DNA from: Rickettsiales bacterium
GTDB lineage: Bacteria; Pseudomonadota; Alphaproteobacteria; Rickettsiales; UBA6187
Length of the DNA stretch: 64,000 nucleotides
NCBI GenBank assembly: GCA_040507985.1
Contig: JBEVNR010000001.1
Location: 16,098 to 80,097 of the forward strand
Direction: 5' to 3'
The translations under genes and the position numbers were made by a program. Every line of letters begins with the position of its first letter. Position 1 is the first letter of the stretch. Below, piece by piece: positions 30,455 through 52,879 of the stretch. Below the pieces are notes generated by a model that saw only the letters and a program-made list of their open reading frames with translations, was not told the origin of the DNA and did no database searches.

Positions 30455-30459
30455 GCGCG

Positions 30460-31062
30460 CTACTCCTTTATTTCGATCAGGCGAACGTCGTTCCAAAAAT
30501 AGCGCTCTCCCACGTCCGAACGCATCGCCAGCGCGTCGACGTCGAAGCGCACGGGAACGTCGAAGGTGAAATCGGCGGAGATGACGGCGCCATCCGCCGG
30601 CGGCAAGGCGAACGTCACGACCCCCGTCGCGACGTTCATGGAATATCCGCTTAGCAGGGGAGCGTCGTTGACATAGATCGCAAAATCGTCCGCCACCGGC
30701 TTGGCGATGATACGAGCGTCTCCCTCTTCCGCGCCCTCATAGGTTTTTATCAACGGAAAAGCGAGGGTTTCGCCGTCGCCTTCGCCGATCATTTGCCCAT
30801 CGGCCCGGCAGTCGCTTTTGTCGCGAAACCGGAATCCGTAGGCGCGGCCCTTCCGGGCGCGGAAAAAGGCGATAAGCGCGTCGCGTTGCTCGGCGTTGCG
30901 CACGCCGCACCCCACTTCGTATTCGATATATCCGCTGCGGGCCCGAACGGCGCGAGACTCGACGCCTCCCCGCCGCCGCACCACGTCGACGTCGAAACGC
31001 GGACCTCCCACGGCGCCGGCGGCAATGTCTATCGGAAAGGAAACGTCGTGAAAACCGCTCAT
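30460..31062 (-). CDS. GTA/phage tail-module protein, RcGTA g12-like (DUF2460)
   Basis: MSGFHDVSFPIDIAAGAVGGPRFDVDVV...ALIAFFRARKGRAYGFRFRDKSD is the characteristic DUF2460 N-terminal pattern. Confidence 0.78.
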   Translation of the reverse strand: MSGFHDVSFPIDIAAGAVGGPRFDVDVVRRRGGVESRAVRARSGYIEYEVGCGVRNAEQRDALIAFFRARKGRAYGFRFRDKSDCRADGQMIGEGDGETLAFPLIKTYEGAEEGDARIIAKPVADDFAIYVNDAPLLSGYSMNVATGVVTFALPPADGAVISADFTFDVPVRFDVDALAMRSDVGERYFWNDVRLIEIKE

Positions 31063-31241: not shown

Positions 31242-33086
31242 ATGCCCAAAGACGCAAAAACCGCAGCGATGGAACGCACGACGCTAATTCGGCGATACAT
31301 GAAGGAGCGCAACCTCGACGCCTTCATTCTGCCGTCGCACGACGAATATCGCAGCGAAATGCCGCCGAAGGGCAATTGCCGCCTTGCCGCGCTCACGGGC
31401 TTTACGGGATCGTTCGGCGTCGCGATTGTCACGCAAGACGCCGCTTTTCTCGTCACCGACGGACGCTATCGCCTTCAGGCGCGGGAAGAGCTTCCGATGG
31501 ACATATACGTTCCGGTGGACGTATCGACGAAACGCCCGACGCAATTGCTCGCCGAACGGCTTCCCGCCGGAGCGTTCGCGGGATTTGACCCGGAGTTGAC
31601 GTCAAAATCGGAAATGGACGCCTATCGGGCGGCGGCGCCGTCGGTGCAATTCGTGCCGGTTTCCCCCAATCCCGTCGACGACGTATGGGAGGATAGGCCG
31701 CCGGCAAGCGACGCCGAAATTTTCGCCTATCCGGAAAAATACGCCGGCGAAAGCGCGGGAACGCGGCTGGCCAAGCTCGCGCAAGCGCTCGAAAAATACG
31801 AGGCGGACTATGTGTTCGAGCCGTTCCCGGAGCATATATGCCGCCTGCTTAACGTGCGGGGCGGCGACGCGCCTTATACGCCGGTGGCGTTCGGACGGCT
31901 TTTGGTGGAGAAAACCGGCGTTGCGCATTGGTTCGTCGATATGTCGCGCGTGAATCGGGAATTGCGCGACGCCTTGCACGAGGCCGGCGTAAAAATTCGT
32001 CCGCTCGAAGAATGCGCGGCGGCGCTGGAGGCGATTCCCGAAAAGGCGCGCGTGCTGCTTGATCCGAGCTTAACGTCGATGAAGCATTACAATGCGCTTA
32101 AACACGCCGTCGTCGTGCCGTCGCCCTCTCCTTGCGCGATGATGCAGGCCGTCAAAACCGACGCCGAAATCGCCGCCATGAAAGAGGCGCACCGCATCGA
32201 CGGGCTGGCCATGACGCGCTTTTTGCATTGGCTGGAAAAAAGCCGCAAGGCCAAGGAAGAGCTACGCGAGACGGACGTCGTTTCTGCCTTAACCCGCTTT
32301 CGCGCGATGAGCGACGAATATCGCGGCGACAGTTTCGCCGCCATCGTCGGCGCGGACGCCAACGGCGCCGTCATCCATTACCGCCCCTCTCCCAAAACCG
32401 CCGCGACCATTCGCGACGGCTCCATGGTGCTTATCGACTCCGGCGGACAATATCTGCAAGGCACGACCGACGTGACGCGCACCGTATGCCTGTTCGAGCC
32501 GACGCCGGAGCAAAAGCGCCGGTTTACCCTCGTCTTGCGGGGGCATATGGCTCTCGCCCGGGCGGATTTCCCCGAGAACACCGCCGGGGAAATGCTCGAC
32601 GCGCTGGCGCGGCAATATCTATGGCGCGAGGGAAGGGACTACGCCCACGGCACCGGCCACGGCGTGGGGTGTTTCCTCGGCGTGCACGAAGGTCCGCAAC
32701 GGATTGGCAAGGGATTAAGCGGCGTCGGCCTACGCCCGAACATGGTGCTCTCGAACGAACCCGGCTATTACCGGGACGGCGCCTACGGCATTCGCATCGA
32801 AAGCCTCATCGTCGTCGAGCGCTCGCCTTCCTTATCGGACGAAGCGCAATATTGTCGCTTCCGCACCATCACGCTCGTTCCGATCGACGCGCGCGCCATC
32901 GATTTTTCGCTGCTGAACGTGGGCGAAAAAAACTGGCTGCGCGACTATCACGACCGCATTCTGGCGGCACACGGCGAATTCCTTTCCCAAGACGAGCGCG
33001 CCTGGCTGGAAGATCTATGCGCCGTCTACGCAAGCGAAGCCGCGACCATGCGCGAGCGAAGCGTCCACCATCCGGCGAATTTTTAG
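31242..33086 (+). CDS. pepP: Xaa-Pro aminopeptidase (M24B family)
   Basis: 614 aa with metal-ligand motifs HGTGHGVG and SNEPGYY, and creatinase-like N-terminal domains. Confidence 0.9.
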   Translation: MPKDAKTAAMERTTLIRRYMKERNLDAFILPSHDEYRSEMPPKGNCRLAALTGFTGSFGVAIVTQDAAFLVTDGRYRLQAREELPMDIYVPVDVSTKRPTQLLAERLPAGAFAGFDPELTSKSEMDAYRAAAPSVQFVPVSPNPVDDVWEDRPPASDAEIFAYPEKYAGESAGTRLAKLAQALEKYEADYVFEPFPEHICRLLNVRGGDAPYTPVAFGRLLVEKTGVAHWFVDMSRVNRELRDALHEAGVKIRPLEECAAALEAIPEKARVLLDPSLTSMKHYNALKHAVVVPSPSPCAMMQAVKTDAEIAAMKEAHRIDGLAMTRFLHWLEKSRKAKEELRETDVVSALTRFRAMSDEYRGDSFAAIVGADANGAVIHYRPSPKTAATIRDGSMVLIDSGGQYLQGTTDVTRTVCLFEPTPEQKRRFTLVLRGHMALARADFPENTAGEMLDALARQYLWREGRDYAHGTGHGVGCFLGVHEGPQRIGKGLSGVGLRPNMVLSNEPGYYRDGAYGIRIESLIVVERSPSLSDEAQYCRFRTITLVPIDARAIDFSLLNVGEKNWLRDYHDRILAAHGEFLSQDERAWLEDLCAVYASEAATMRERSVHHPANF

Positions 33087-35338: not shown

Positions 35339-35770
35339 TCATGATTCGTTGGGAAACATGTGGTTCAATTGTGCCATTATACAAGATAAATAGTAGAGTA
35401 TACAACTCTGGAGTACACGAATGTCATAGGAAACTTGTTCTATATTAGCCACAGCGTCGTCCACTAATATTCGATCGGCTGCGGCAATCATTGCGTTTTG
35501 ATCTGCGACGCTAAAGAATTCCCATCCTGCGGGAAGAAAAATTGTTTCGTTCCCGGCAAATACTCGCATATCTACAGCCTCGATAATGCCTCCGTCCTCT
35601 TGCATTTCAAATGCGTAAATGATGACGTCTTGCGAAAGATTGAAGTTTATACTCTTCGGAAGAGGATTGTGGTTTGGATCCTGCGGAAGAGGTGAGTCAA
35701 GCTTCTGGCCGTATCCTTTTTCTCCGCAAGCGACATACCGGCTATCTGCCAGAGTGGTGCCTTCGGACAT
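35339..35770 (-). CDS. hypothetical orphan protein
   Basis: 143-aa ORF in an AT-richer stretch immediately downstream of, and co-directional with, the SNF2/SWIM helicase gene. No motif recognised. Confidence 0.35.
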   Translation of the reverse strand: MSEGTTLADSRYVACGEKGYGQKLDSPLPQDPNHNPLPKSINFNLSQDVIIYAFEMQEDGGIIEAVDMRVFAGNETIFLPAGWEFFSVADQNAMIAAADRILVDDAVANIEQVSYDIRVLQSCILYYLSCIMAQLNHMFPNES

Positions 35771-35934: not shown

Positions 35935-38900
35935 CTACGCCGCCGAAAACAAGGCCGCCACTTCGTCGCCGGTGATTTTCGCTCCGGCGTTGGCGGTCGG
36001 GTCGAAAATGCCGTCGGCAAGTTCGCGTTTTTTCTCTTGCATCTCCAGAATTTTTTCTTCGACGGTTCCTTCGGTGATAAGCTTATAGACGAACACCGGC
36101 TTTTCCTGGCCAATGCGGTGGGCGCGGTCGGTGGCCTGGTTTTCCGCCGCCGGATTCCACCATGGGTCGTAATGAATGACGGTATCGGCGGCGGTCAGGT
36201 TCAGTCCTACCCCGCCGGCCTTTAGGCTGATGAGGAACAGCGGAACGTCGCCGTTTTGAAAGCGCTCTATCGGGGTTGCCCGGTCTTTCGTCTGCCCGGT
36301 CAACTTGACGTAGTCGATTTTTTCCTTCGCCAATTCGCCTTCGATCAGTTTGAGCATGCCGGTGAATTGCGAAAAGAGCAGAATTTTCCGCCCGTCTTCG
36401 ATTAATCCCGGAAGCATTTCCATGAGCATGTCGAGCTTGGCCGACTCGGTGAGTTTTTTCGCCCCCTCCATGGGAAGCAGGCGGGGATCGCAACAGGTTT
36501 GGCGCAATTTCAGCAACGCCTCCAGCACCACGATATGGCTGCGGGCCAATCCTTTTTTGGCGATTTCGTCGCGCACCTTTTCGCTCATGCTCACGCGAAT
36601 GGTTTCATACAGGTCGCGCTGCGCCTTGTCGAGCGTCGCGGTGCGAATCATTTCCGTTTTCGGGGGAAGTTCCGCCGCCACCTGCTCTTTCGTGCGACGC
36701 AGGACGAACGGGGCGATGCGGCGCGCGAGTGCCTTATTGCGGTCGAAATTTCCGTCCTTCTCAATGGCCTTCCGATAAAATTTGTTAAATTCGCGGTCGC
36801 TACCGAGGTAATCCGGCATCAGGAAGTTAAACAGCGCCCATAATTCGCCCAAATGGTTTTCGACGGGCGTACCGGTCATGCAAATGCGATGGTCGGCCTT
36901 CATCATGGAGGCGATTTTGTTGAATTTCGACTTGGGGTTTTTAATGTAATGCGCTTCGTCCAGAATCACGGAATGGTACGCGTGCGCGAGCAACGCGTCC
37001 TTATCGCGCGGCAATAGCGGATAGGTGGTCAGCACCATGTCATACTGCGGAATGTTGTCGAAATCTTCCTTGCGCGAGGCTCCGTGCTGCACCAGCACCT
37101 TTATGTCCGGCACGAAACGCGCCGCCTCTTTCGCCCAGTTGCCCATCAGGCTGGTGGGAGCGACGACGAGCGCGGGCTTGGTAAGGCGCCCGTTTTCTTT
37201 TTCGCAGGCGATATGCGCCAGCACTTGAACGGTTTTGCCCAGCCCCATATCGTCGGCGAGCACGCCGGCCAAACCGAATTCGCGCAAAAACTGCAACCAG
37301 CTTAATCCTTCCCGCTGATAGTCGCGTAAATTCGCGCGCAGCGACGTCGGCGGGGGCGTCGGTTGGACGGCGTTGAAGCTTTTCAGTTTTTTCGCCAATT
37401 CGATCAGCTTATTCCCGCCGAAACGCCGCAACTTAAGGGCGGCGCTTAATTCTTCCAGCTCCAACATGTCGAGCGCGTCGTTGCGCGACAGTTTAATGGC
37501 GTCGAAATCGGCGCCTTCCCTAAAACTGTACAGGTCCTTGATGAATTTTAGCATCAATCCCACGCGATCGGCGGGAAGCGAGATGATTTTCCCGTCTTCC
37601 ATGGGAATAAGTAAATCTTCGCCCCTCGCTTTTTTAATGTGCTCTTCGGAATAATTCGACATTTCGGGAAAAATTTTCAGCGCGCGCAACAAAATGGGCA
37701 CTAAATTTATTTTTTCGCCGCCTAACGTTACGCCCAAATTAAAGCCGAACCAGTCCGTTCCGGACGAATCGTCGATATCGGCGTACCATTCCTCGTCGGG
37801 TTTAACGATATTGAACGGGAAATCCGGCTCAACGTCGATTTTCCACCCTTTGTCGCGTAAGGCCGGCACGACGTCCGTCATAAAGTCGCACCATGCCTCG
37901 AAACTTTCCTCGGTGTTTATCTCGCCCGGCGCGCCGACGATGATAAACGGATCGCCTTGCGTTTTTGGGAGGGAGTACATTTTTTGCTCGGGAAGAAGCC
38001 GTCCGAGATGGTTCTTTTTCAGTATGTCTATAAGGCGATATTCTTCTTTTTTATTGCGCATTATGTCGTAAAGGCGACCGCCCTCCGCTTTCGTCGCCGT
38101 GTCGCCTTGCGCGGCGAAATGGGTGATCGCCCCCTCGTAAGAAAAAGTCAGGTCGCCGCCGGCGGTCGTGACGTTCGGCCTCCCCCATAATTTCGACTCT
38201 AGCGTGAATGAGGTAAGGCGCAATTGCGGCGTCGGCTTCACTTGCTTCGCGACAAGTTGTTGCTCGAATTTTTCGGGCATAGGCAGAGCGGAAGAAGCGG
38301 CGTCTCCCGACCCTTGCGCAAACGCCTTGCCAAGCCGTTCGCGCACCTTGGCGACGGCGTCCGAGGCGACGGGCGGCGCGCTAAGCAAGTTTTTTAGCGT
38401 ACTCCCCGTAAACGGCGTATGAATTACGCCGATGCGGTGCGCGCTCGGGTCGTAATAATAGAGGGCGTTGCCAACGAAACAGGATGTCGCGCGGGGCAGA
38501 TCGGGGGTGCGAATTTCCAATCGCTGCGTTCCTCCCGTTTCGACGCGCCAAGCGAACTCGCCCTTCGTTTCGGGGCCGAGGGAAAGCGCCGGCCCGTCCG
38601 GCTCGCTTCCCCAACGGGAACGCCCCGTGGCAAGAATGCGATCGAGCAGCGAAGCGTCGCCGGCGTCGTTCAGCTCCGTCGGGTCGGCCACGTATCGATA
38701 ACCCGAGTAATCATGATAATAGAGGCTGCGCATGATGCTTTGGTCTTCGTCGGTGACGAATTTCGGCAACGCGCCCCCGCGCACGGCGCTTTCGGGAACG
38801 TAGCCGCGCACTTGGCCGTAACCGCCGCTTTTGAGCATGGCGGCGGAGCAGGTTTCGACGGTTAGGTAATTTTTATCCGAAACGCTAAGGAGATAAAATA

Positions 38901-39264
38901 TCGCTTTATTTACCGTGGCTTTTTTTTCGGCCTTCGGCTCGTCGAACTGCGCCAGCCATTTTTCGAGTTCCGCGTCAAGACGCGCGTCCTCGTCCGCTTT
39001 TTTAGAGGCGTTATTGACGTAATGATATAGCGCCGCCACGACGTGCTTGCAGTCTCCTCCCAACGGACAGGAGCAAAATCCCGTGATTTTTTTTCCGTTG
39101 AGGATAATTTTTTGCGTATATACTTCGCTCCCCCGCACTTTCCCTACGATGGAGCCGTCTTGCTGCGTCGTAATTTCCGCGACGCGGCCCTGATAATAAT
39201 AGTTTTTTCCGCGTTGGGCGGCGGCTGACGAAAATTGGCGGGATATGTCGGTAACGTCTATCAT
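35935..39264 (-). CDS. SNF2-family helicase with N-terminal SWIM zinc finger
   Basis: 1109 aa. SWIM motif CSCPLGGDCKH. SNF2 motifs DDMGLGKT, ILDEAHYIKN, LLFSQFT and GGVGLNLTAADTVIHYDPWWNPAAENQATDRAHRIGQ. Confidence 0.93.
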   Translation of the reverse strand: MIDVTDISRQFSSAAAQRGKNYYYQGRVAEITTQQDGSIVGKVRGSEVYTQKIILNGKKITGFCSCPLGGDCKHVVAALYHYVNNASKKADEDARLDAELEKWLAQFDEPKAEKKATVNKAIFYLLSVSDKNYLTVETCSAAMLKSGGYGQVRGYVPESAVRGGALPKFVTDEDQSIMRSLYYHDYSGYRYVADPTELNDAGDASLLDRILATGRSRWGSEPDGPALSLGPETKGEFAWRVETGGTQRLEIRTPDLPRATSCFVGNALYYYDPSAHRIGVIHTPFTGSTLKNLLSAPPVASDAVAKVRERLGKAFAQGSGDAASSALPMPEKFEQQLVAKQVKPTPQLRLTSFTLESKLWGRPNVTTAGGDLTFSYEGAITHFAAQGDTATKAEGGRLYDIMRNKKEEYRLIDILKKNHLGRLLPEQKMYSLPKTQGDPFIIVGAPGEINTEESFEAWCDFMTDVVPALRDKGWKIDVEPDFPFNIVKPDEEWYADIDDSSGTDWFGFNLGVTLGGEKINLVPILLRALKIFPEMSNYSEEHIKKARGEDLLIPMEDGKIISLPADRVGLMLKFIKDLYSFREGADFDAIKLSRNDALDMLELEELSAALKLRRFGGNKLIELAKKLKSFNAVQPTPPPTSLRANLRDYQREGLSWLQFLREFGLAGVLADDMGLGKTVQVLAHIACEKENGRLTKPALVVAPTSLMGNWAKEAARFVPDIKVLVQHGASRKEDFDNIPQYDMVLTTYPLLPRDKDALLAHAYHSVILDEAHYIKNPKSKFNKIASMMKADHRICMTGTPVENHLGELWALFNFLMPDYLGSDREFNKFYRKAIEKDGNFDRNKALARRIAPFVLRRTKEQVAAELPPKTEMIRTATLDKAQRDLYETIRVSMSEKVRDEIAKKGLARSHIVVLEALLKLRQTCCDPRLLPMEGAKKLTESAKLDMLMEMLPGLIEDGRKILLFSQFTGMLKLIEGELAKEKIDYVKLTGQTKDRATPIERFQNGDVPLFLISLKAGGVGLNLTAADTVIHYDPWWNPAAENQATDRAHRIGQEKPVFVYKLITEGTVEEKILEMQEKKRELADGIFDPTANAGAKITGDEVAALFSAA

Positions 39265-39370
39265 TATGTCGCTTTAAATACGTGAAGGGAACGCCATTGG
39301 CCGACAATGTATAGGATACGATATTCGCATGGCGATAAAAAAATGAGGGAAACGTCGATTTTTTATAAAA

Positions 39371-39427
39371 AATTCATGTTTTTGCGGTATACGTAACGGG
39401 CGCGTTATGGTATGCGCAGCGTTATGG
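39371..39427 (+). promoter_or_regulatory. candidate cis-regulatory region upstream of virB8 (AATTCATGTTTTTGC motif plus three CGT(A/T)A(C/T)GG direct repeats)
   Basis: AATTCATGTTTTTGC at 39371-39385 is identical to 23786-23800. CGTAACGG (39392), CGTTATGG (39403) and CGTTATGG (39420) follow, 30-65 nt before the virB8 ATG. Function is inferred only. Confidence 0.3.
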
Positions 39428-39457
39428 AAACGTCATTCCGTCATCTAAAAAAAACGC

Positions 39458-40201
39458 ATGGCCAGGGTAAGCGAACACGAAAAAAGCTATTTCTTAGACG
39501 TCGCGCGCCGCATTGAAGACGGGCGATATTTTAACGACGCGCGCGAATGGTATAAGTTTTCGACGCTGCTTCCCATCTGCGAACGTTCCTACGCGGCGCT
39601 TATCTTGGCCGCCGTATGCTTCGCCTTCGCCGTGACCATGATTAACGTCAACCTTATCGGCGAGACGATCATTCGCACGCCCTTCGCCGTCGGGGTGGAG
39701 CAAGGGTCCAACGTCGGCTATTACATGACGCGGCTTTCCGATGACTCCAAAGAAAATCCCCAATTGTCGGTGGCGAATTTCATGATAGGCTCCTTCGTCG
39801 AAACGAAGGAGGGGTATTCCCCAAAATTGATGACGCCGCAAGGGTACGCCTCGCGCTACCGCAAAATTAAGACGATGTCGTCGAAAAACATTTACAATCG
39901 CTACCGCGCGTACATGTCGCAGCTCAATCCTTCCAGTCCCTTAAGAAAATACGGCAACGACTTCACCCGCGACATAGAGGTGTATTCCATCGAATACAGC
40001 AATAATTACCTGTATAGCACGCACGCGAAAGTGCAGTTCCTCAGCAAGGAAATTCCGATCAAGGGAAAAGACCGAAAAATAAAAACGGACGAATGGGTGG
40101 CGGACTTGCATTTTCGCCTCTCCGACGTCGTGTCGATCGCGCGTTCCAGCGCGCCGATCAAGTTTCAGGTAACAAGCTATACGGTGCGCAAGAAAAAGTG
40201 A
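39458..40201 (+). CDS. virB8: type IV secretion system protein VirB8-like
   Basis: 247 aa with a bitopic layout: cytoplasmic N-terminus, one TM (YAALILAAVCFAFAVTMINV) and a ~170-aa periplasmic domain. The N-terminal YFNDAREWY segment resembles what I recall from Rickettsiales-type VirB8. It lies directly upstream of, and overlaps, virB9. Confidence 0.65.
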   Translation: MARVSEHEKSYFLDVARRIEDGRYFNDAREWYKFSTLLPICERSYAALILAAVCFAFAVTMINVNLIGETIIRTPFAVGVEQGSNVGYYMTRLSDDSKENPQLSVANFMIGSFVETKEGYSPKLMTPQGYASRYRKIKTMSSKNIYNRYRAYMSQLNPSSPLRKYGNDFTRDIEVYSIEYSNNYLYSTHAKVQFLSKEIPIKGKDRKIKTDEWVADLHFRLSDVVSIARSSAPIKFQVTSYTVRKKK

Positions 40202-40989
40202 CGAAATTACCTTACGTGTTGACGGCGCTGTGCGCGGCATTTTTTCTGGCGACGGCCTTTCCCGCCGCCGCGATGCAAGAATCTCGCCCCGTGGCCGGAG
40301 AGCCGCGCTTACGGGTGATTACCTATAACCCGAACGCAATTCACCATTATATCGGGCATTACGTCTATCAGGGCAGCATCTTATTTGGAAAGGACGAAAA
40401 AATTCTCACCGTCTCGCTGGGCAATCCGGCCGCATGGCAGGTGCTTCCAAAGGACAATCGCCTGTTTCTTAAGCCGATTGCGGTGTATCCCGAACATACC
40501 GTCACAAACATGATGGTCATTACCGAAAAGCGCACCTATTATTTTCAATTGGAAGGGCGCATCGCCGAAAACATCAACGACCCGCAACTGGCGTGGGAGA
40601 CGCGATTCGTCTACCCGGAAGGCGACTCGGCCGGCGATTCGCTGAGGCAATACGCTCCCCAAAGCGCGTCCGAGCCGGATTTAACCGACCTTAGCCGCTA
40701 TAACTTCAACTACACCATTTCCGGCAACGAATTTACGGCCCCGATTCGCGTGTTCGACGACGGAGAGTTCACCTATCTGGAATATCCCGACGTCAACGTG
40801 GACCTTCCCGCAATTTTTCTGGTGGATTCGCAAAACAAGGAGGCCATCGTCAATTTTCACGTCGCCGGAAAATACGTCGTTATCGAGCGCGTGGCGGGAC
40901 GCTTCACCCTGCGCCACGGCAACGACGTGACGTGCCTGTTTAACGAAAACTGGGCGTCGCCGAAATCCTTGCCCGCCGCCTTGCATTGA
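40198..40989 (+). CDS. virB9: type IV secretion system protein VirB9-like (CagX/TrbG family)
   Basis: Signal peptide (LTALCAAFFLATAFPAAA). N-domain: RVITYNPNAIHHYIGHYVYQGSILFGKDEKILTVSLGNPAAWQV...NRLFLKP...TNMMVITEKRTYYFQL. C-domain: PIRVFDDGEFTYLEYPD...LPAIFLVDSQNKEAIVNFHVAGKYVVIERV. I prefer the GTG at 40198, which overlaps the virB8 stop (GTGA). Confidence 0.85.
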   Translation: MTKLPYVLTALCAAFFLATAFPAAAMQESRPVAGEPRLRVITYNPNAIHHYIGHYVYQGSILFGKDEKILTVSLGNPAAWQVLPKDNRLFLKPIAVYPEHTVTNMMVITEKRTYYFQLEGRIAENINDPQLAWETRFVYPEGDSAGDSLRQYAPQSASEPDLTDLSRYNFNYTISGNEFTAPIRVFDDGEFTYLEYPDVNVDLPAIFLVDSQNKEAIVNFHVAGKYVVIERVAGRFTLRHGNDVTCLFNENWASPKSLPAALH

Positions 40990-40990
40990 T

Positions 40991-41725
40991 TTGTCGCTCG
41001 TGGACAAAGGAAAGCCTGACGTCGCATCTTTCGCCCTTCCCCCGCACCTATTGGCGGTGGACGACGACGACGGGCTGCGAGAGTTGCTCGCGGAATATCT
41101 GCGCCGCGAGGGCTATGTCGTCGGCATGGCGCGCAGCGCGGACGAGGCGACGAACTATCTCGCTTTTTACCGCGTGGACCTTATCTTGCTGGACGAGAAC
41201 ATGCCGAAAGAGAAGGGAACGGATTTTTTGCGTCGGTTGCGCAAGGGCGAAGGCGTTCCGGTCATCATGCTAACCGCCAACAACGAAACGCACGACCGCA
41301 TCGCGGGGCTGGAGGCGGGAGCGGACGACTACGTCGCCAAACCCTTCGCTCCCAAGGAGCTTTCCCTCAGAATCGCGCGGCTGCTCGAAAGATCGGCGTC
41401 CCCGCGCCATGCGAACGACGCAAGCGACGCGCATTACGTCGAGATAGGGCGCTACCGGTTTACGCCCGCCACGAACGCCTTGGCGTTGGACGGAAACGAC
41501 GTCGCGCTCGGCGAACGCGACAGAACCTTACTCGCGCTTCTCGCCGAAAGCGGAGGCGCGCCCGTCGCGCGAGAGGAGCTTGCGCGGCGATGCGGGATTA
41601 ACGAGCGCTCGGTCGACGTCGGCGTCGCCCGGCTTCGCGCCAAGCTTGAGCCTGATCCCAAAAAGCCGATCTTATTGCAAACCGTGCGCGGGGCGGGTTA
41701 CGTGCTGCGCCAACGGATGCGTTAA
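40991..41725 (+). CDS. OmpR-family two-component response regulator
   Basis: Receiver domain (LLAVDDDDGLRELL...DLILLDENMP...VIMLTA...KPF) and a winged-helix output domain (TVRGAGYVL). It starts (TTG, or GTG at 41000) 1-10 nt after the virB9 stop. Confidence 0.9.
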   Translation: MSLVDKGKPDVASFALPPHLLAVDDDDGLRELLAEYLRREGYVVGMARSADEATNYLAFYRVDLILLDENMPKEKGTDFLRRLRKGEGVPVIMLTANNETHDRIAGLEAGADDYVAKPFAPKELSLRIARLLERSASPRHANDASDAHYVEIGRYRFTPATNALALDGNDVALGERDRTLLALLAESGGAPVAREELARRCGINERSVDVGVARLRAKLEPDPKKPILLQTVRGAGYVLRQRMR

Positions 41726-41742: not shown

Positions 41743-43149
41743 CTATGGGTGCGTGGCGCGTATCGCCTCGGTCACGTCGACGACGAAACGGGGGAAGCGG
41801 ACCGGCAAATCTCCCCAAATCGACGCGCGCCCGGCAAACTCCGCTTCCTTTCCAAGGGCCAATAACGGTTTAAGTTCGTCAAACGAGGGATCGACGTAAG
41901 GAATGGCCGCGTTCCCTTCCGCGACGCGACGCATAAATGCATACCACGCCGCCGCGACGGCAATGGCGCAACGGGGAACGGCGCCCGCTTCGTACCGGGC
42001 GACCATAGTGGGGCGAACGAAAATGGCAATTTTATTTGCGCCGTCCATGCAAATGCGCTCCACCGCGTCGGCGATATGCGGGTTAAGAAATCGGTTTTTT
42101 ATCGACGCGACGTAAGAAGCGAGGTCGAGGGGAGATTCCTTCAATCCGGGAACGGCGTCTTCCCGCTCGTAGGCGTCAAAAAAAGCGCTTAGCTCCGGAT
42201 CGCGCAATGCCGTTCCGAAATTCGAATATCCTTTCAGCGCAGCCAAATAGGCGACGCAGCTATGGCCGCCGTTAAGAAGCCGTATTTTCGCCTCTTCGTA
42301 AGGGGCGACGTTCGGGACGAATTCGGCGCCGGCCGCATCGAGGGGAGGACGTTCCGCCGCAAAGGCGTCTTCTATCACCCATTGGGAAAAATCTTCGGAA
42401 AATACCGAAAAATCATCTTTTATGCCGAAAAGTTCCTCTATTTCATGCGAAAGCGCGTCGGTCGGGCGCGGGGTGATGCGATCGACCATGGCGCAAGGAA
42501 AGCTCGCCTTTGTCTTTACCCATTCGAGCAAGGCGTCGTCTTTTGCGGCGGAAAGATAGGCGAGAAAGTTGCGTCGCAAAATTTTTCCGTTTTCGCGCAA
42601 ATTATCGCAACACATGATCGTCACGGCGGCGCCGTCCGCCTCCATGCGCGCCCTCAACCCCGCGCGAAGAAATCCGTAAATCGTGGATTGAGGCCCTCCG
42701 GCGAGTTCGTCCGCTATTTCCTTTCGCGCGACGTCGAGCGAGCCGTCGCTCGCCATGTAATACCCGCTCTCCGTGACCGTCGCCGACACGACATGGACGG
42801 ACGGAAGCGCGAGGAGACGATGCGCCTCCGTCGACGCCGTGGCATGATCGATGACGCGAATCAGCGACCTTACGAGGCGATATTCCGTTTTTCCCTCGAA
42901 AGACACGGTTTTCAAGACATATTCTCCGTTTCTTTTTCGCAAGCGCTCCGTCTCCGGCGATTGTGCCGCGCGTACGTTGACGCCGGCGACGCCCCACCGC
43001 AAATCTCCGGTTTTTTCCATAAGCGAATCGTAATAGGCCGCCTGATGCGAGCGGTGAAACGCGCTTATGCCAACGTGAACCACGCCGAGGACGACGTCTT
43101 CCCGGCGATAGGAAGAACGGGCGAGCTTTATGTTTTGCGAGTTAGGCAT
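41743..43149 (-). CDS. mannitol dehydrogenase family oxidoreductase (long-chain polyol/mannonate dehydrogenase)
   Basis: 468 aa. N-terminal VHVGISAFHRSHQAAYYD Rossmann/signature region and family-typical length. Substrate not assignable. Confidence 0.82.
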   Translation of the reverse strand: MPNSQNIKLARSSYRREDVVLGVVHVGISAFHRSHQAAYYDSLMEKTGDLRWGVAGVNVRAAQSPETERLRKRNGEYVLKTVSFEGKTEYRLVRSLIRVIDHATASTEAHRLLALPSVHVVSATVTESGYYMASDGSLDVARKEIADELAGGPQSTIYGFLRAGLRARMEADGAAVTIMCCDNLRENGKILRRNFLAYLSAAKDDALLEWVKTKASFPCAMVDRITPRPTDALSHEIEELFGIKDDFSVFSEDFSQWVIEDAFAAERPPLDAAGAEFVPNVAPYEEAKIRLLNGGHSCVAYLAALKGYSNFGTALRDPELSAFFDAYEREDAVPGLKESPLDLASYVASIKNRFLNPHIADAVERICMDGANKIAIFVRPTMVARYEAGAVPRCAIAVAAAWYAFMRRVAEGNAAIPYVDPSFDELKPLLALGKEAEFAGRASIWGDLPVRFPRFVVDVTEAIRATHP

Positions 43150-43347: not shown

Positions 43348-45168
43348 CTAAGAACCGTTCCCTTCGCGCAGCGCGGCGTTCACGCGAAATTTTTTAAGGG
43401 GACGCTCCGTGGGGCGACTTTCCCCTTTCTCTTCTCCTGCCGGAAGGGAGGCGGTTTTTTCCTCCTTTGCCTCCATCATTTTAAGCGTAATTCCCGAAAA
43501 CGCCTTGCCATCGGAAAGGGCGCTCATGAAGGCCAGAATATCTGCGTCGTCATAGGCGTTTCCCTTCAGTTCCACCGAACGGGGAAAGCGATACTCGAAG
43601 CTATCCAGCCACACGCCGGCGGGAATGACGGCGTTCACGTCGTCCAGCGCGCGCATGACGTGCGATTGGTTTAAGGGCAGGGAATCCGGCAAGGCGTGAA
43701 TTTCCTTTAGCTTCCCCGTCACGCCGGTTAATTCCTTCGCGCGCGCCAGTTTTTGGTCATAGCCGGCCGACAGGCGCTTCGCCTCTTCCAGATCGGACGC
43801 CACGCGCATTTTTTGCGTCCACATGCCCAGCGTCAAGGCGGCGAGCGTCGATCCGACGGCAAGCGCGAGGACGGAGGCGGCAAGAAATCCCTTGCGGCGG
43901 AGGGTTACGGCCTCTCCCGTCTCCTTCGCATACGGATAAAGGTTGAGTGCCCCCATATCCCGATACGGGTGCGACGCCTTGCCGAGAAGCGTTCGCCCCG
44001 CGATCAACGTGACCGCCGCATCGGAGGAAAAAGCGGCGGCGGCGGAACAATCATCAAGCGGCGCGATTTTATAACCATCGGGCGAATCCTGCCTTTGGAC
44101 GGCGTATAAACGCACCTCAGGCAAGGCGTCGCGTAATTTTTCGACGAAGGACGGCGCGAGCGGCACGCAGGAAGAAACGAGCGCGCGCACGGGGAAGCCG
44201 CTTCCCGACGCCGCCTGAATTTCCATGGTCGCCCGACGAAATTCGTCGGCGTAGCGCCCGGCGACGCTTTCCATAATGTGCGCGTCGCCGCCCGAAAGCG
44301 CGACCCTGTCCCAATCGCTGATGACGATTTCCTTATGGACGGGCAATCCGTTATGCGCGACGATGACGTGGTTTTCCTCCGGCCCTATCTGCATGACGGC
44401 GGACGGAGACGCATCGGAAGCGTCTATCTGCGTTGCCAACCGCATGAGCGCCGCCTCCCGCACGTCGAAGAGCGCCGGACGCAACCCGGCCCGGGCGAGG
44501 ACGTCTTCAAAAAACGCTCCGGCGTCGCGCCGATAGCCCGAAAACAACAGCTCCATCGCGTCATGTTCGGCGTTGCGGGAAACGACGTCGTAACATAGGC
44601 GGTAATGCTCAAGGTCCACGTCTTTTGCCAAGGCGTTCCGCCAAAAGTCGGGACTCGCCGACGCCATGTCTTTCAACGCTTCGCCGTTCATGTTACGAAA
44701 CGACGCGCGCCCGAGCGCCGACGCCGACATGGGAAGCGCCAGCGCCACCAGATTATGGGGCGCGTTAAGCGCCTTGGCGCCGGCCCTTAGCGCGGCAACG
44801 ACGTCGCCCTTACGTTCGGCCAGTTCCTCCCACGTCGCACAATCCCGCAAAGGACGCTCGACGTAGCGCGTTTTTCCCCTGCCGCGACGGCACATCCGCA
44901 CGTAACGGGGCGTTATCTCCACGCCGATCAACGACAAATGTGATAACTGGCGCGCCTTGCGTCCGCCGGCGCTTTCCGACGGAGCGGGTACATACGGGCA
45001 GAAATGCGGCAGCGACGTCGGAGGAAAAATGGCAACGACGTCCGCCGGAGAGGAAGGAAGCGCCGCGAGCATCGTCTCGGCGGCGTTTTCGTGAACGGTA
45101 AAATCATACTCCCGTTCCGTTTCGCCCCCTAAAAAATTATCGTGGGGCGGAAAATAATCATGGGTCAT
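43348..45168 (-). CDS. PilM-PilN-like fusion protein (GspL-like architecture)
   Basis: 606 aa. The N-terminal ~400 aa have a PilM-like actin-ATPase-fold pattern (LIGVEITPRYVRMCR ... VMQIGPEENHVIVAHNG). Then one TM (FLAASVLALAVGSTLAALTLGMW), a coiled segment, and a PilN/GspL-type periplasmic domain (VIPAGVWLDSFEYRFPRSVELKGNAYDDADILAFMSALSDGKAFSGITL). Confidence 0.55.
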   Translation of the reverse strand: MTHDYFPPHDNFLGGETEREYDFTVHENAAETMLAALPSSPADVVAIFPPTSLPHFCPYVPAPSESAGGRKARQLSHLSLIGVEITPRYVRMCRRGRGKTRYVERPLRDCATWEELAERKGDVVAALRAGAKALNAPHNLVALALPMSASALGRASFRNMNGEALKDMASASPDFWRNALAKDVDLEHYRLCYDVVSRNAEHDAMELLFSGYRRDAGAFFEDVLARAGLRPALFDVREAALMRLATQIDASDASPSAVMQIGPEENHVIVAHNGLPVHKEIVISDWDRVALSGGDAHIMESVAGRYADEFRRATMEIQAASGSGFPVRALVSSCVPLAPSFVEKLRDALPEVRLYAVQRQDSPDGYKIAPLDDCSAAAAFSSDAAVTLIAGRTLLGKASHPYRDMGALNLYPYAKETGEAVTLRRKGFLAASVLALAVGSTLAALTLGMWTQKMRVASDLEEAKRLSAGYDQKLARAKELTGVTGKLKEIHALPDSLPLNQSHVMRALDDVNAVIPAGVWLDSFEYRFPRSVELKGNAYDDADILAFMSALSDGKAFSGITLKMMEAKEEKTASLPAGEEKGESRPTERPLKKFRVNAALREGNGS

Positions 45169-48251: not shown

Positions 48252-50057
48252 CTAATACACCCTCTTCTTTAGCGGTATCGCCTCCACCTCGTTGGTAAGG
48301 GTGGTGAGGCAGACGGGGCGGTAATCTAAGGAAACGTTGCCGGCGTCGGTGACGCGGGCGAGCGTGTGTTTCAGCCAGTTTTTGTCGTCGCGGTCCGGGT
48401 AGTCCTCCCGCGCTTGCGCCCCCCGGCTTTCGGTGCGGGCGAGCGCGCCTTCGATGGTGACGAGGGCCTGGCCGCGCAGATTGTCCAACTCCAGCGTTTC
48501 CACCAGGTCGCTGTTCCAAATGAGTCCGCGATCGGTGACGGAGACGTCCTTGAAGTTCTTGTAGCATTCGCGTACTTTTTCCACGCCTTCCGCCAGCGTT
48601 TTGTGCGTGCGATACACCGCCGCATGGTTTTGCATGGCTTTTTGCATGGTAAGCCGCAATTCCGCCGTAGGCGTCGCCCCCTTGGCGTGGCGGAGATTGT
48701 CGAAACGCGTGAGCGCCTTGTCGGTCGCCGCTTGGGGCGCAACGGCATGTTTTTGCTTCGGTTTTAATAGTTGCGCGGCGCGGATGGCGGCGGCGCGGCC
48801 AAACACCACCAGATCAAGCAGCGAGTTCGATCCCAGTCGGTTGGCGCCGTGCACCGATACGCACGCCGCCTCGCCAATGGCCATTAAGCCTTTGACCGTT
48901 GCATCTTTCCCTTTGTCGCGCGCGATCGCCTCGCAATAATAATTGGTGGGCACGCCGCCCATATTGTAATGCACCGTGGGGAGGACGGGAATCGGCTGGC
49001 GCGTCACGTCCACGCCGGCGAAGGTTTTGGCCGTCTCCGCGATGCCGGGCAGGCGCTCATGAATCACTTCGGGAGCCAAATGGTCGAGATGGAGGAAAAT
49101 ATGGTCCTTGTTTTTACCGACGCCGCGCCCTTCGTTTATCTCCACCGTCATCGCGCGCGAGACGACGTCGCGCGACGCCAGGTCTTTCGCCGATGGGGCG
49201 TAGCGCTCCATAAAGCGTTCGCCCTCGCCGTTGACGAGGTAGCCGCCCTCGCCGCGCACCCCTTCGGTAATCAGGCAGCCGGCGCCGTATATGCCGGTGG
49301 GGTGGAATTGCACGAATTCCATGTCTTGCAGCGGCAGCCCCGCGCGCAGCGCCATGCCGCCCCCGTCGCCGGTGCAGGTATGGGCGGACGTGCAGGAGAA
49401 ATAGGCGCGTCCGTAGCCGCCCGTCGCGAGTATGGTAAGCCCGGCGTTGAAGCGATGCAAGGTGCCGTCGTCCAGATTCCACGCCAGCACGCCGCAACAT
49501 TCCCCGGCCTCGTTCATCAGCAGGTCTATCGCGAAATATTCCACGAAAAACGACGCGTTATGCTTGAGCGATTGCGTGTATAAGGTGTGCAGAATGGCGT
49601 GGCCGGTGCGGTCCGCCGCCGCGCAGGTGCGCTGCGCCGCCTTGCCTTGCCCGTATTCGGTCGTCATGCCGCCGAAGGGACGTTGATAGATTTTCCCCTC
49701 TTTCGTGCGCGAAAACGGCACGCCGTAATGTTCCAGCTCGATAATGGCGCGCGGAGCCTCCTTGCACATATATTCGATGGCGTCCTGGTCGCCCAGCCAG
49801 TCCGATCCTTTTACCGTGTCGTACATGTGCCAGCGCCAATCGTCGGGACCCATATTGCCCAGCGCGGCGCTGATGCCGCCTTGCGCCGCCACCGTATGGC
49901 TGCGCGTAGGAAAGACTTTCGTCACGCAGGCGACGGACAGCCCGGCTTCGGCGATTCCCAAAATCGCGCGCAGCCCGGCGCCGCCGGCGCCGACGACGAC
50001 GACGTCGTTATAATGGTCGTGAACGGGATAGGCGTCGGTAGGCATGCATATATCCAA
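48252..50057 (-). CDS. sdhA: succinate dehydrogenase flavoprotein subunit
   Basis: 601 aa. FAD fold [13 protein letters not shown], covalent-FAD His region [11 protein letters not shown], and HPTG. Confidence 0.97.
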
Positions 50058-50063
50058 ATATAT

Positions 50064-50477
50064 CTAAGCGAAAACGGATCCGCCGCCCAAATGCCGGGCG
50101 ACGATAAGGCATATGGCGACGAAAACGGCGGCGCCGAGCGCTAAATTGACGAAACGCACCGTATTTAGCAGCACGAAATGCGCGACCGGGCAACGCACGT
50201 AGTCTTCGATAATCATCTGCATGCCCATGGCGGAATGGTAGAATCCTATGCCGAAAAGCAACACGCCGGCGGCGGCGTCCCACGCGCCGAAAAACATTTC
50301 GTCCGCTCCGCCGTCTCCGTGAGTGACGACGCACAAAAATCGCGCGACCACGTAGAGCACGAGCGGAATAAGCGCGAGGGCGGTTAAGCGTTCGGCCACC
50401 CAATGCGCCGCGCCCCGGCGCTCGGGCGCCCGATTTTTAAATAACGGATGGCGGGGCGAACGGCAATGCTTGTTCAT
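50064..50477 (-). CDS. sdhD: succinate dehydrogenase membrane anchor subunit
   Basis: Three-TM small hydrophobic protein between sdhC and sdhA. I prefer the ATG at 50477, which overlaps the sdhC stop (ATGA); the track ORF extends to 50546. Confidence 0.85.
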   Translation of the reverse strand: MNKHCRSPRHPLFKNRAPERRGAAHWVAERLTALALIPLVLYVVARFLCVVTHGDGGADEMFFGAWDAAAGVLLFGIGFYHSAMGMQMIIEDYVRCPVAHFVLLNTVRFVNLALGAAVFVAICLIVARHLGGGSVFA

Positions 50478-50884
50478 GACGCGGCTCCCAATACGTATAT
50501 CCAGCACCCGACGGTACAAACGATGGAGGCGACGACGACCGCCCATCCGGTTTTATGCATGGCAGGCAACGAAAAGCCTTTTCCCACATCCCAACACAAA
50601 TGGCGTATGCCGTTAAAGAGATGGTAAAAGAGGGAAAACGTCCATCCGAAAAGCAGGATTTTTCCGAAGGCGGACGAGAAAAACGCGGCTATCCATCCGC
50701 CGTTGCCCTCCGGATAAAACGCCGCGCAGCATATCCACAGCGCCGCAAGAACTAAACCGATATAATTCGCGACGCCCGTCATGCGGTGCAGAATGGACAA
50801 CACCGTGCTGATTTGCGGTTTGTAGACGCTTAAATGCGGAGAAAGCGGACGCTTCTCCCGCACGTTATTTCCAAGGGACGGCAT
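50474..50884 (-). CDS. sdhC: succinate dehydrogenase cytochrome b556 subunit
   Basis: 136 aa. RPLSPHLSVYKPQISTVLSILHRMTG is the SdhC signature. Confidence 0.92.
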   Translation of the reverse strand: MPSLGNNVREKRPLSPHLSVYKPQISTVLSILHRMTGVANYIGLVLAALWICCAAFYPEGNGGWIAAFFSSAFGKILLFGWTFSLFYHLFNGIRHLCWDVGKGFSLPAMHKTGWAVVVASIVCTVGCWIYVLGAAS

Positions 50885-51133
50885 GTCGCAGCCTTATAAA
50901 TACATTATTTTTATAGCGAAATGATACGCGCGCCCGTTTTTATATCAATGTATCGCGCGAATTTCCACGCAAAAATAGATTTTCTTTGCGTTTGCATTGC
51001 TGCGACGCCGTTCAAGATTTTTTTATCGATCTTTTTTTTATGGATGCAGATCAGCAACAAGAGAAAATGATAGAAAAAATAACGGACCGGCCGTTCTTTT
51101 GTAAGATAGAGAGCGCAATCGAAGGGGAATCGG

Positions 51134-52771: not shown

Positions 52772-52879
52772 CGCATTAATAACTTATGTTTCCACCCTGT
52801 CGTCGTCCGTGATCTTGCTCCGGTCGCCCGCCTTATACAAAGGTTTTAATTCCCCGGTCTCTTGCAATATTTTATTCCA

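What the first reader, a model, noticed from the sequence alone, without database searches (positions are those of the whole stretch)
39458..41725. Orphan virB8-virB9 pair translationally coupled and fused operonically to an OmpR-type response regulator
Seen: the VirB8-like ORF stop overlaps a GTG start of a complete VirB9 (GTGA). That VirB9 has a signal peptide and both N- and C-terminal domains. A response-regulator ORF begins 1-10 nt after the virB9 stop. No virB10, virB11 or virD4 follows, and no virB2-B7 precedes. The flanks are an SNF2 helicase and a polyol dehydrogenase.

Established: canonical virB operons keep B8-B9-B10-B11 together. Rickettsiales-type (rvh) systems are scattered and carry duplicated B8/B9 copies.

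Inference: this is a scattered or duplicated T4SS module. A two-component regulator embedded in the same transcription unit suggests direct, possibly auto-regulated, control. Three CGT(A/T)A(C/T)GG direct repeats lie 30-65 nt upstream of virB8 and could be its binding sites.
Basis: partly seen in the sequence, partly recalled or inferred. Interest (0 to 1): 0.6.

Follow-up and report, generated by a model that had tools for sequence, protein, structure and literature searches.

The report
Rickettsiales rvhB8-II/rvhB9-I islet plus regulator
The lone virB8-virB9 pair is a known, conserved islet (rvhB8-II plus rvhB9-I) of the scattered Rickettsiales type IV secretion system, and the response regulator abutting it appears only in this lineage, so the finding is largely ordinary.

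Summary
A VirB8-family gene (39458..40201) overlaps by 4 nt (GTGA) a full-length VirB9 gene (40198..40989). An OmpR-type response regulator starts 1-10 nt after the virB9 stop. No other type IV secretion gene lies in the 64 kb window.

The pair is not an oddity. It matches the rvhB8-II/rvhB9-I islet of the Rickettsiales vir homolog (rvh) system, described by Gillespie et al. in 2009 and 2015. Four results support this:
- The VirB8 lacks the NPXG motif and has APIK in its place.
- Its best sequence and fold match is R. typhi RvhB8-II (PDB 4O3V).
- The VirB9 has both domains.
- In about 165 related loci from Rickettsiales and alphaproteobacterial MAGs, the pair usually stands alone among housekeeping genes and is usually tightly joined.

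The regulator adjacency is not conserved. None of the related loci has a regulator after virB9. The regulator's closest relatives (58-69% identity) are single genes with their own upstream region.

The three CGTWAYGG repeats are present but statistically unremarkable, and the array is not conserved.

Most likely a local rearrangement placed an orphan regulator behind the islet, so it is probably co-transcribed. A dedicated autoregulatory role remains possible but unsupported.

The parts
39265..39457 (+). Intergenic region (40% GC) between the divergent SNF2 helicase gene and the VirB8-like gene; presumed promoter region of the islet
   Evidence: The only sigma-70-like match is at 39235-39264, no more than expected by chance. 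No Rfam match. RNA folding z-score is -1.4. A TATAC(T/G)-like box next to GCGTTAnGG is shared with relatives L002 and L093.
39392..39427 (+). Three CGTWAYGG copies (39392-39399 CGTAACGG; 39403-39410 and 39420-39427 CGTTATGG), with start-to-start spacing of 11 and 17 nt
   Evidence: Searches confirm the copies. They are not significant: 104 of 2000 shuffles and 63 of 658 real windows do as well. The array is not conserved in L093 or L002.
39458..40201 (+). rvhB8-II-type VirB8 paralogue (247 aa): cytoplasmic N-terminus, one transmembrane helix, NTF2-like periplasmic domain; the NPXG position reads APIK
   Evidence: Pfam VirB8, E 7.9e-12. Best PDB sequence hit is 4O3V, R. typhi RvhB8-II, at E 5e-7, against 2e-4 for Bartonella VirB8. 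Foldseek top hit is 4O3V at E 2e-8 and TM 0.73, on a low-confidence model with pLDDT 57. APIK is invariant in its clade. None of about 70 partner VirB8 ORFs has NPXG.
40198..40989 (+). rvhB9-I-type full-length VirB9 (263 aa) with signal peptide and both N- and C-terminal domains; its GTG start overlaps the VirB8 stop by 4 nt
   Evidence: CagX, E 7.7e-53; TIGR02781 at 206.5 bits. Matches TrwF 7O3J over residues 13-257 and TraO C-terminal domain over 169-256. It is 42-73% identical to VirB9 of Rickettsiales MAGs, Xenohaliotis and Midichloria. The C-terminal domain holds many invariant columns.
40991..41725 (+). Orphan OmpR/PhoB-family response regulator (241-244 aa; start TTG 40991 or GTG 41000) with a non-conserved 15-18 residue N-terminal extension
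   Evidence: Response_reg plus Trans_reg_C. Best NCBIfam match is OmpR, 169 bits against a cutoff of 331. D24, D25, D68, T95 and K117 are conserved, and invariant H19 fixes the start. The closest relatives are stand-alone genes.

Best explanation
[quoted passage not shown] They sit in a GC-rich, metabolically rich MAG that NCBI labels 'Rickettsiales bacterium'.

In rvh systems the machine's genes are dispersed in several islets. The canonical-looking VirB9 (RvhB9-I) is paired with the divergent VirB8 copy that lacks NPXG (RvhB8-II). The canonical VirB8 (RvhB8-I) sits with RvhB9-II, B10, B11 and D4 elsewhere.

Shown here:
- Family membership of both proteins.
- The RvhB8-II hallmarks.
- The full-length VirB9.
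- The 4-nt start/stop overlap.
- The recurrence of this isolated, tightly joined pair across Rickettsiales-type genomes.

Inferred:
- The pair is translationally coupled.
- Its products join a T4SS whose other parts are encoded outside the window.

The response regulator is an orphan alphaproteobacterial OmpR-family regulator. A lineage-specific rearrangement placed it directly behind rvhB9-I and removed its own upstream region and start codon. It is therefore probably expressed by read-through from the islet promoter or from a promoter inside virB9. That it regulates the islet is possible but has no positive support.
For: Identity of the pair:
- Pfam, NCBIfam and PDB matches.
- Fold match to RvhB8-II 4O3V.
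- NPXG replaced by APIK.
- The 4O3V sequence is 52-53% identical to the VirB8 partner of stand-alone pairs in Rickettsiaceae loci L029, L046 and L070, which ties the stand-alone pairs to RvhB8-II.
- The literature describes rvhB8-II and rvhB9-I as one operon separate from the B8-I/B9-II/B10/B11/D4 islet, and names B8/B9/B4 duplication as an rvh hallmark (PMC4676284; PMC11077975; PMC9352585).

Recurrence of the arrangement:
- 84 genome and contig loci plus 80 metagenome loci carry VirB9, usually with VirB8 directly upstream, and housekeeping genes downstream (GpsA, NadA, HisI, IlvB/N, FtsK, DnaE, EptA, SurA, HisS, MraY).
- The B8-to-B9 junction is an overlap or a gap of 25 nt or less in 63 of 70 loci.
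- Other vir genes lie nearby only in L078, L085, L061, L064 and L148.

Native status:
- GC3 of the two genes is genome-like.

Regulator as a late arrival:
- No related locus has a regulator after virB9.
- Regulator relatives at 69%, 66% and 58% identity are monocistronic, with AT-rich upstream regions.
- In L091 the regulator's neighbour is the orthologue of the window's pepP gene, which lies 8 kb away in the window.
- Relatives at about 50% identity sit in marR-RR-histidine kinase operons.
Against: - The rest of the rvh system could not be inventoried, because only 64 kb of the genome is visible. Participation in a complete T4SS is therefore inferred from relatives and the literature.
- The VirB8 structural model is low confidence (pLDDT 57).
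- No RvhB8-I or RvhB9-II sequences were available for an explicit paralogue phylogeny.
- The 1-10 nt gap makes co-expression of the regulator with the islet likely, and co-expression can be selected for function.
- Repeat copies 1 and 2 have the 11-nt spacing typical of OmpR/PhoB sites.
- The junction is seen in only one MAG and one Logan contig, possibly from the same reads.
Confidence: 0.8

Rival explanations
1. Autoregulated module. The response regulator was recruited into the rvhB8-II/rvhB9-I operon as its dedicated transcription factor. It binds the CGTWAYGG repeats upstream of virB8 and so controls its own synthesis together with the two T4SS components.
For: - A gap of 1-10 nt with no terminator-like site at the junction.
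- An intact phospho-acceptor pocket.
- Repeat copies at 39392 and 39403 are 11 nt apart, as in OmpR/PhoB sites.
- One copy plus an adjacent TATAC box is partly conserved in L002.
- From general knowledge, OmpR-family regulators control virB operons in other Alphaproteobacteria (VirG, BvrR, BatR).
Against: - The adjacency is absent from all of about 165 related loci and from the regulator's three closest relatives.
- The repeats are no better than 5% of shuffles and 10% of real windows.
- There is no window-wide enrichment of the motif.
- The array is not conserved in the 81%-identical relative L093.
- No cognate kinase lies in the window.
Confidence: 0.12
2. Remnant or repurposed pair. The genome lacks a complete T4SS, and the VirB8/VirB9 pair either is a decaying leftover or works alone in some other envelope function.
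For: - No other T4SS gene in 64 kb.
- Most related loci also show no neighbouring vir genes.
Against: - Both ORFs are intact.
- VirB9 keeps 30 invariant family positions, and VirB8 keeps clade-invariant blocks.
- The same isolated pair occurs in Rickettsiaceae, Midichloria and Xenohaliotis loci. In such lineages the dispersed rvh system is described in the literature as complete.
- Basal Rickettsiales are reported to carry full rvh sets.
Confidence: 0.06
3. Assembly artefact. The virB9/regulator junction is a chimeric join in a metagenome assembly.
For: The junction is known only from one NCBI MAG contig and one Logan contig of run SRR28982155. The regulator has an unusual, non-conserved N-terminal extension.
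Against: - Two assemblies give the identical sequence.
- Composition and GC3 are continuous across the junction.
- The regulator reading frame opens cleanly with a start codon right after the stop.
- The pepP gene, which neighbours the regulator in relative L091, lies only 8 kb away in the window. That fits a local rearrangement better than a foreign join.
Confidence: 0.02

Closest known systems
rvhB8-II/rvhB9-I operon of Rickettsia typhi (RT0278 for RvhB8-II) and Neorickettsia, part of the Rickettsiales vir homolog (rvh) T4SS 'archipelago' (Gillespie 2009, 2010, 2015)
   Same: - A divergent VirB8 without NPXG is paired with a full-length VirB9 that has a conserved C-terminal domain.
- The pair is separate from the B10/B11/D4 islet.
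- RvhB8-II (4O3V) is the best sequence and fold match.

   Different: - The host is a GC-rich (56%) MAG with biosynthetic genes, PHA synthase, pilin-like genes and GTA-like genes, unlike reduced intracellular Rickettsia.
- The position equivalent to NPXG reads APIK, against MPFH in the R. typhi structure (4O3V).
- A response regulator directly follows virB9 here.
Canonical Agrobacterium-type virB1-virB11 operon, for example Rhizobium sp. NLR16a plasmid p7, locus L175
   Same: Homologous VirB8 (21% identity, E 1e-6) and VirB9 (38%, E 1e-43), in the same order and tightly joined.
   Different: - In the canonical operon, B8 and B9 are embedded between B6 and B10-B11-D4.
- Here nothing else of the system lies within 64 kb.
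- Canonical VirB8 carries NPXG.
OmpR-family regulators that control virB systems in Alphaproteobacteria (Agrobacterium VirA/VirG, Brucella BvrR/BvrS, Bartonella BatR/BatS), recalled from general knowledge; and the non-two-component regulators of rvh loci (Ehrlichia EcxR, Wolbachia wBmxR1/2; PMC4676284)
   Same: The regulator has the same domain family as VirG (receiver plus winged helix; NCBIfam VirG model 104.8 bits) and is physically linked to T4SS genes.
   Different: - Those regulators are not encoded downstream of virB9 in the same operon.
- This regulator scores far below every equivalog cutoff.
- It has no kinase nearby.
- Its linkage to the islet is not conserved.
- No binding data exist.
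Alphaproteobacterial marR - OmpR-type regulator - histidine kinase operon (loci L087 and L089)
   Same: The regulator is 51-52% identical to these proteins over its full length.
   Different: In the window and in its three closest relatives, the marR and kinase neighbours are absent and the regulator is an orphan.

Membership tests
rvh T4SS islet rvhB8-II/rvhB9-I | VirB8-family protein with an NTF2-like periplasmic domain | tested here: met
   Pfam VirB8, E 7.9e-12. Foldseek hits to 36 VirB8/TrwG/TraE/CagV chains at E <= 1e-3, on a model with pLDDT of only 57.
rvh T4SS islet rvhB8-II/rvhB9-I | RvhB8-II hallmark: the NPXG dimerisation motif is degenerate, with Asn and Gly replaced | tested here: met
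   The position reads APIK in the window and is invariant in its six-member clade. None of about 70 partner VirB8 ORFs has NPXG, whereas the Bartonella reference has NPLG. The criterion comes from PMC4676284.
rvh T4SS islet rvhB8-II/rvhB9-I | Closer to RvhB8-II than to canonical VirB8 or RvhB8-I | tested here: inconclusive
   4O3V (RvhB8-II) is the best PDB hit by sequence (32.7 against 24.1 bits) and by fold. It is 52-53% identical to the orthologous partners in Rickettsiaceae loci. No RvhB8-I sequence was available for a tree.
rvh T4SS islet rvhB8-II/rvhB9-I | RvhB9-I: full-length VirB9 with a conserved C-terminal domain (RvhB9-II lacks it or its conserved residues) | tested here: met
   Aligns to TrwF over residues 13-257 and to TraO C-terminal domain over 169-256. 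TIGR02781 scores 206.5 bits. Invariant C-terminal-domain columns are listed.
rvh T4SS islet rvhB8-II/rvhB9-I | The pair is encoded apart from virB10, virB11 and virD4 | tested here: met
   tblastn with reference VirB2-B11/D4 finds only B8 and B9 in the 64 kb. Neighbours are an SNF2 helicase, a regulator and a mannitol dehydrogenase.
rvh T4SS islet rvhB8-II/rvhB9-I | The same genome carries the other rvh hallmarks (RvhB4-I/II, multicopy RvhB6, RvhB8-I, RvhB9-II, B10, B11, D4; no VirB5) | not testable with these tools
   Only the 64 kb window is available, out of an 88 kb contig. The MAG is not a species representative in the genome collection.
rvh T4SS islet rvhB8-II/rvhB9-I | The organism belongs to Rickettsiales | tested here: inconclusive
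   NCBI labels the source 'MAG: Rickettsiales bacterium'. VirB9 relatives are overwhelmingly Rickettsiales genomes or MAGs. No phylogenomic placement was done, and some related loci carry other labels such as Azospirillum or Rhodospirillaceae.
OmpR/PhoB-family response regulator | Receiver domain with an acidic pocket, a phospho-acceptor Asp, and conserved Thr and Lys | tested here: met
   Response_reg, E 7e-30. D24, D25, D68, T95 and K117 are invariant in alignment A2.
OmpR/PhoB-family response regulator | C-terminal winged-helix Trans_reg_C domain | tested here: met
   Trans_reg_C, E 2.6e-14, residues 168-239.
OmpR/PhoB-family response regulator | Membership of a named orthologue group (OmpR, PhoB, VirG, CtrA and others) | tested here: not met
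   Every NCBIfam equivalog scores far below its cutoff. The best is OmpR at 169 against 331 bits; VirG scores 104.8 against 344.
Dedicated T4SS two-component regulator (VirG/BvrR/BatR-like) | Conserved genetic linkage or co-occurrence with the T4SS genes it controls | tested here: not met
   None of about 165 related VirB9 loci has an adjacent regulator. The regulator's closest relatives are unlinked to virB9.
Dedicated T4SS two-component regulator (VirG/BvrR/BatR-like) | Specific binding to the T4SS promoter | not testable with these tools
   Needs EMSA or DAP-seq. The candidate repeats are statistically weak.
Canonical contiguous virB operon | B8-B9-B10-B11 are contiguous | tested here: not met
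   The gene after virB9 is a response regulator, and the next gene is on the opposite strand. There is no B10 or B11 homologue in the window.

The most novel reading that the evidence does not exclude
In this basal, probably free-living Rickettsiales-like lineage, an orphan OmpR-type regulator was captured into the rvhB8-II/rvhB9-I operon and now autoregulates the 'duplicate' rvh components through the CGTWAYGG sites. This would give the first two-component switch hard-wired into an rvh islet. It would also offer a handle on what the enigmatic Rvh-II/Rvh-I paralogue pairing is for.
Probability: 0.1. Interest if true: 0.5.

Novelty: new member of a known kind. Interest (0 to 1): 0.25.

Why it matters
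The result shows that an apparently orphan virB8-virB9 pair is the expected rvhB8-II/rvhB9-I islet of the dispersed Rickettsiales secretion system. This survey finds the tightly joined pair in most of about 165 loci, including environmental MAGs and Midichloria. The literature had reported the two genes as one operon only in Rickettsia and Neorickettsia.

Regulators of rvh in basal Rickettsiales are unknown. If the regulator fusion were functional, it would give a testable entry point. On present evidence it is a one-lineage gene-order accident.

Tried and rejected
- **Other T4SS genes or a kinase in the window.** I looked with Pfam on 36 ORFs and tblastn with a reference VirB2-B11/D4 set. None was found.
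- **VirB10/B11/D4 downstream of the pair in relatives.** Recurrent neighbour clusters first looked like candidates by size (about 334 aa and about 480 aa). They turned out to be GpsA, NadA and Mrp/Nuo-type membrane subunits.
- **Conservation of the regulator adjacency.** It was absent in 84 plus 80 loci and in the regulator's own closest relatives.
- **Significance of the repeats.** They were not significant.
- **A structured RNA or known RNA family in the leader.** None was found.
- **Promoter and terminator scan at the virB9/regulator junction.** It was uninformative, with counts at or below shuffle expectation.
- **Naming the regulator's orthologue group (CenR/PetR idea).** A literature search gave no useful hit and I dropped it.
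- **VirB8 homologue search in the word-indexed database.** It returned only 6 proteins, so the structure model rests on a shallow alignment with pLDDT 57.
- **Recent horizontal acquisition of the pair.** Rejected, because GC3 is genome-like.
Full report
**Observation**

The ORF at 39458..40201 (+, 247 aa) matches Pfam VirB8 (E 7.9e-12, residues 48-245). Its TGA stop overlaps a GTG at 40198, which opens a 263-aa ORF ending at 40989.

That second ORF matches Pfam CagX/VirB9 (E 7.7e-53) and the TIGR02781 VirB9 model at 206.5 bits, just below the 217.7 cutoff. It has a signal-peptide-like N-terminus. It aligns to R388 TrwF over residues 13-257 and to TraO C-terminal-domain structures over 169-256, so both domains are present.

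The next ORF is an OmpR/PhoB-type response regulator with Response_reg and Trans_reg_C domains. In an alignment with its relatives, His19 is invariant. No start codon exists between 41003 and that residue, so the start must be TTG 40991 or GTG 41000. That is 1 or 10 nt after the virB9 stop.

The flanks are an SNF2/SWIM helicase (35935..39264, -) and a mannitol-dehydrogenase-family enzyme (41743..43149, -). Pfam scans of 30 further ORFs show housekeeping genes only: PBP2, LepA, ThiC, SerA, PurL, HtpG, GltX, RadA, PhaC, SdhA, TopA, Tgt, QueA and others. tblastn with VirB2-B11/VirD4 from a Rhizobium plasmid finds only VirB8 (E 1e-6) and VirB9 (E 1e-43) in the 64 kb.

**What the pair is**

The exact VirB9, VirB8 and regulator proteins are on record from an NCBI 'MAG: Rickettsiales bacterium' (88-kb contig) and from a Logan contig of run SRR28982155. 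VirB9 relatives at 42-73% identity come from Rickettsiales MAGs, Candidatus Xenohaliotis and Midichloria.

I surveyed gene context in four contigs of close relatives, 80 genome loci and 80 metagenome loci.
- In the genome and contig set, a VirB8-like ORF lies directly upstream of VirB9 in nearly all loci. In the metagenome set this holds for 58 of 80 loci, many of which are truncated.
- What follows VirB9 is variable and housekeeping: GpsA, NadA, HisI, IlvB/IlvN, FtsK, DnaE, EptA, SurA, HisS and MraY.
- Only a few loci have other vir genes nearby: L078 (VirB2 and VirB4), L085, L061 and L064 (VirB6-like), and L148 (a second VirB8 plus VirB10 on the other strand).

This is the arrangement published for the Rickettsiales vir homolog (rvh) system. 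Its genes are scattered in islets. rvhB8-I and rvhB9-II sit with rvhB10, rvhB11 and rvhD4, while rvhB8-II and rvhB9-I form a distinct operon in Rickettsia and Neorickettsia (PMC4676284; PMC2653234). Duplication of B8, B9 and B4 is treated as an rvh hallmark, and it is also present in the free-living-like basal families Mitibacteraceae and Athabascaceae (PMC11077975; PMC9352585).

**Tests of that assignment**

RvhB8-II is defined by a degenerate NPXG motif.
- In the window protein that position reads APIK, and APIK is invariant in its six-member clade.
- None of about 70 partner VirB8 ORFs in the surveyed loci has NPXG, whereas the Bartonella reference has NPLG.
- The best PDB sequence match is 4O3V, the R. 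typhi RvhB8-II crystal structure (E 5e-7), ahead of Bartonella VirB8 (E 2e-4).
- An AlphaFold model built from a shallow alignment has a mean pLDDT of only 57. Even so, its top Foldseek hit is 4O3V (E 2e-8, target TM 0.73), followed by VirB8, TrwG, TraE and CagV structures.
- The 4O3V sequence is 52-53% identical to the VirB8 partner of the stand-alone pairs in Rickettsiaceae loci L029, L046 and L070. RvhB8-I and RvhB8-II share at most 19% identity, so those pairs are rvhB8-II/rvhB9-I.
- RvhB9-II lacks the C-terminal domain or its conserved residues. The window VirB9 has that domain with many invariant positions, which fits RvhB9-I.

I could not build an explicit paralogue tree, because no RvhB8-I or RvhB9-II sequences were in reach. 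I also could not inventory the rest of the MAG.

**Coupling**

The 4-nt GTGA overlap is typical of the family. Among 70 loci, 19 have the same NTGA-type overlap, 9 have a 1-nt overlap, 5 have other overlaps and 30 have a gap of 25 nt or less. The 71%-identical relative L002 has the identical GTGA junction. Translational coupling is inferred from this, not shown.

**The response regulator**

Its receiver domain keeps D24, D25, D68, T95 and K117, so it looks phosphorylatable. It falls far below every NCBIfam equivalog cutoff; the best is OmpR at 169 against 331 bits. No histidine kinase lies in the window.

No related VirB9 locus has a regulator directly downstream. That holds for the 84 genome and contig loci, and for the 66 metagenome loci that have more than 700 nt after virB9.

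The regulator's nearest relatives are monocistronic, with their own AT-rich upstream regions and an ATG two to four codons before the conserved His:
- P0122 at 69% identity (L091),
- P0123 at 66% (L086),
- P0124 at 58% (L092)
.

In L091 the divergent neighbour is the orthologue of the window's pepP gene (31242..33086), which sits 8 kb from the regulator here. This points to a local rearrangement. More distant relatives, at about 50% identity, lie in marR-regulator-kinase operons. The window regulator has a 15-18 residue N-terminal extension that no relative shares.

The simplest reading is that a rearrangement brought the islet and the regulator together and removed the regulator's own leader. 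In relatives the islet sits downstream of argD-argF. The regulator is now probably co-transcribed with the islet. That makes it co-expressed with the islet, but not demonstrably its regulator.

**The repeats**

CGTAACGG (39392), CGTTATGG (39403) and CGTTATGG (39420) are present. The evidence that they matter is weak:
- The pattern occurs 13 times in the window against 11.8 expected.
- A three-copy cluster at least as good arises in 104 of 2000 dinucleotide shuffles of the intergenic region, and in 63 of 658 real 193-nt windows.
- The core CGTWACG is itself palindromic, so direct and inverted arrangements cannot be told apart.
- Relatives L002 and L093 share a TATACT-like box next to one GCGTTAnGG-like element, which may be a promoter element. 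The three-copy array is not conserved.
- No Rfam family matches and there is no unusual RNA structure.
- The promoter and terminator scan is at background.

**Other checks**

GC3 of the two T4SS genes (0.69-0.71) matches the rest of the window (0.65-0.77), which argues against recent acquisition. A chimeric assembly is unlikely but not excluded, since both records may derive from the same reads.

**Verdict**

The 'orphan' pair is the known rvhB8-II/rvhB9-I islet, here in a GC-rich, metabolically rich Rickettsiales-labelled MAG. It is a new member of a known kind.

The regulator fusion is confined to this lineage, and the proposed binding sites are weak. I give about 0.1 probability to a genuine autoregulatory module. 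Interest is low to moderate, at 0.25.

Noticed in passing
L002 4923-8837; L003 4857-8804; L005 4194-10989; also L007-L009: In the closest relatives the rvhB8-II/rvhB9-I pair sits in a conserved block: ABC2 permease - argD (Aminotran_3) - argF (OTCase) - virB8 - virB9. In several of them rsmE-gshA-Rap1a follows. In L005 only 37 nt separate argF from virB8, which suggests co-transcription with arginine-biosynthesis genes. The window lineage has lost this context.
   Followed up: partly
window 29633-31062 (-): Two adjacent ORFs carry gene-transfer-agent or phage tail-type domains (DUF2460; Phage_phiJL001_Gp84_N plus Phage_BR0599, from the precomputed Pfam hits). They are flanked by housekeeping genes (nitronate monooxygenase, pepP). 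This looks like a small GTA-like remnant, which is unexpected in a MAG labelled Rickettsiales.
   Followed up: no
window 26624-28397 (-) and 43348-45168 (-): Two proteins of 253-275 aa carry N-terminal methylation (pilin-type) motifs, and a 606-aa protein has a C-terminal PilN domain. These point to type IV pilus or pseudopilus machinery, consistent with a free-living-like basal Rickettsiales lifestyle.
   Followed up: no
window 50000-56000; tRNA-Lys at 53124-53199 (-): A low-GC stretch (0.49) lies around a tRNA-Lys gene. It holds ORFs without any Pfam match (51134-52615, 493 aa; 54168-54968, 266 aa) and a CsgG-like lipoprotein (55086-55955). It may be a genomic island.
   Followed up: no
window 35339-35770 (-): A 143-aa ORF next to the SNF2 helicase has strikingly low GC (0.45, GC3 0.44, against a window GC3 of 0.65-0.77) and no Pfam match. 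It may be foreign or not a real gene.
   Followed up: no
L148 (3-2700, - strand, and 4001-4729, +); L078 (8368-11202): In L148 a second VirB8 and a VirB10 lie on the opposite strand just upstream of the VirB9 match, resembling the adjacent tandem islets of R. typhi. In L078 the pair is followed, after hisI, by VirB2 and VirB4 homologues. These loci show different partial clusterings of rvh islets.
   Followed up: partly
L044, L058, L078, L035 (record titles): Several genomes that carry this rvh-type pair are labelled Azospirillum sp., Azospirillaceae or Rhodospirillaceae. Either the labels are unreliable or the rvhB8-II/rvhB9-I pair extends beyond recognised Rickettsiales.
   Followed up: no
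L024 9263-10756 (Candidatus Midichloria mitochondrii IricVA): VirB8-like and VirB9 genes are adjacent here with a 3-nt gap. The 2015 literature states that rvhB8-II and rvhB9-I are separate transcription units in derived Rickettsiales other than Rickettsia and Neorickettsia.
   Followed up: partly
L086 and L093 (both from beach-sand metagenome ERZ937833): The closest VirB8 relative (81% identity) and a close regulator relative (66%) come from the same sample but on different contigs. The regulator there has its own upstream region. If they belong to one organism, this directly shows that the islet and regulator are unlinked in the sister lineage.
   Followed up: partly
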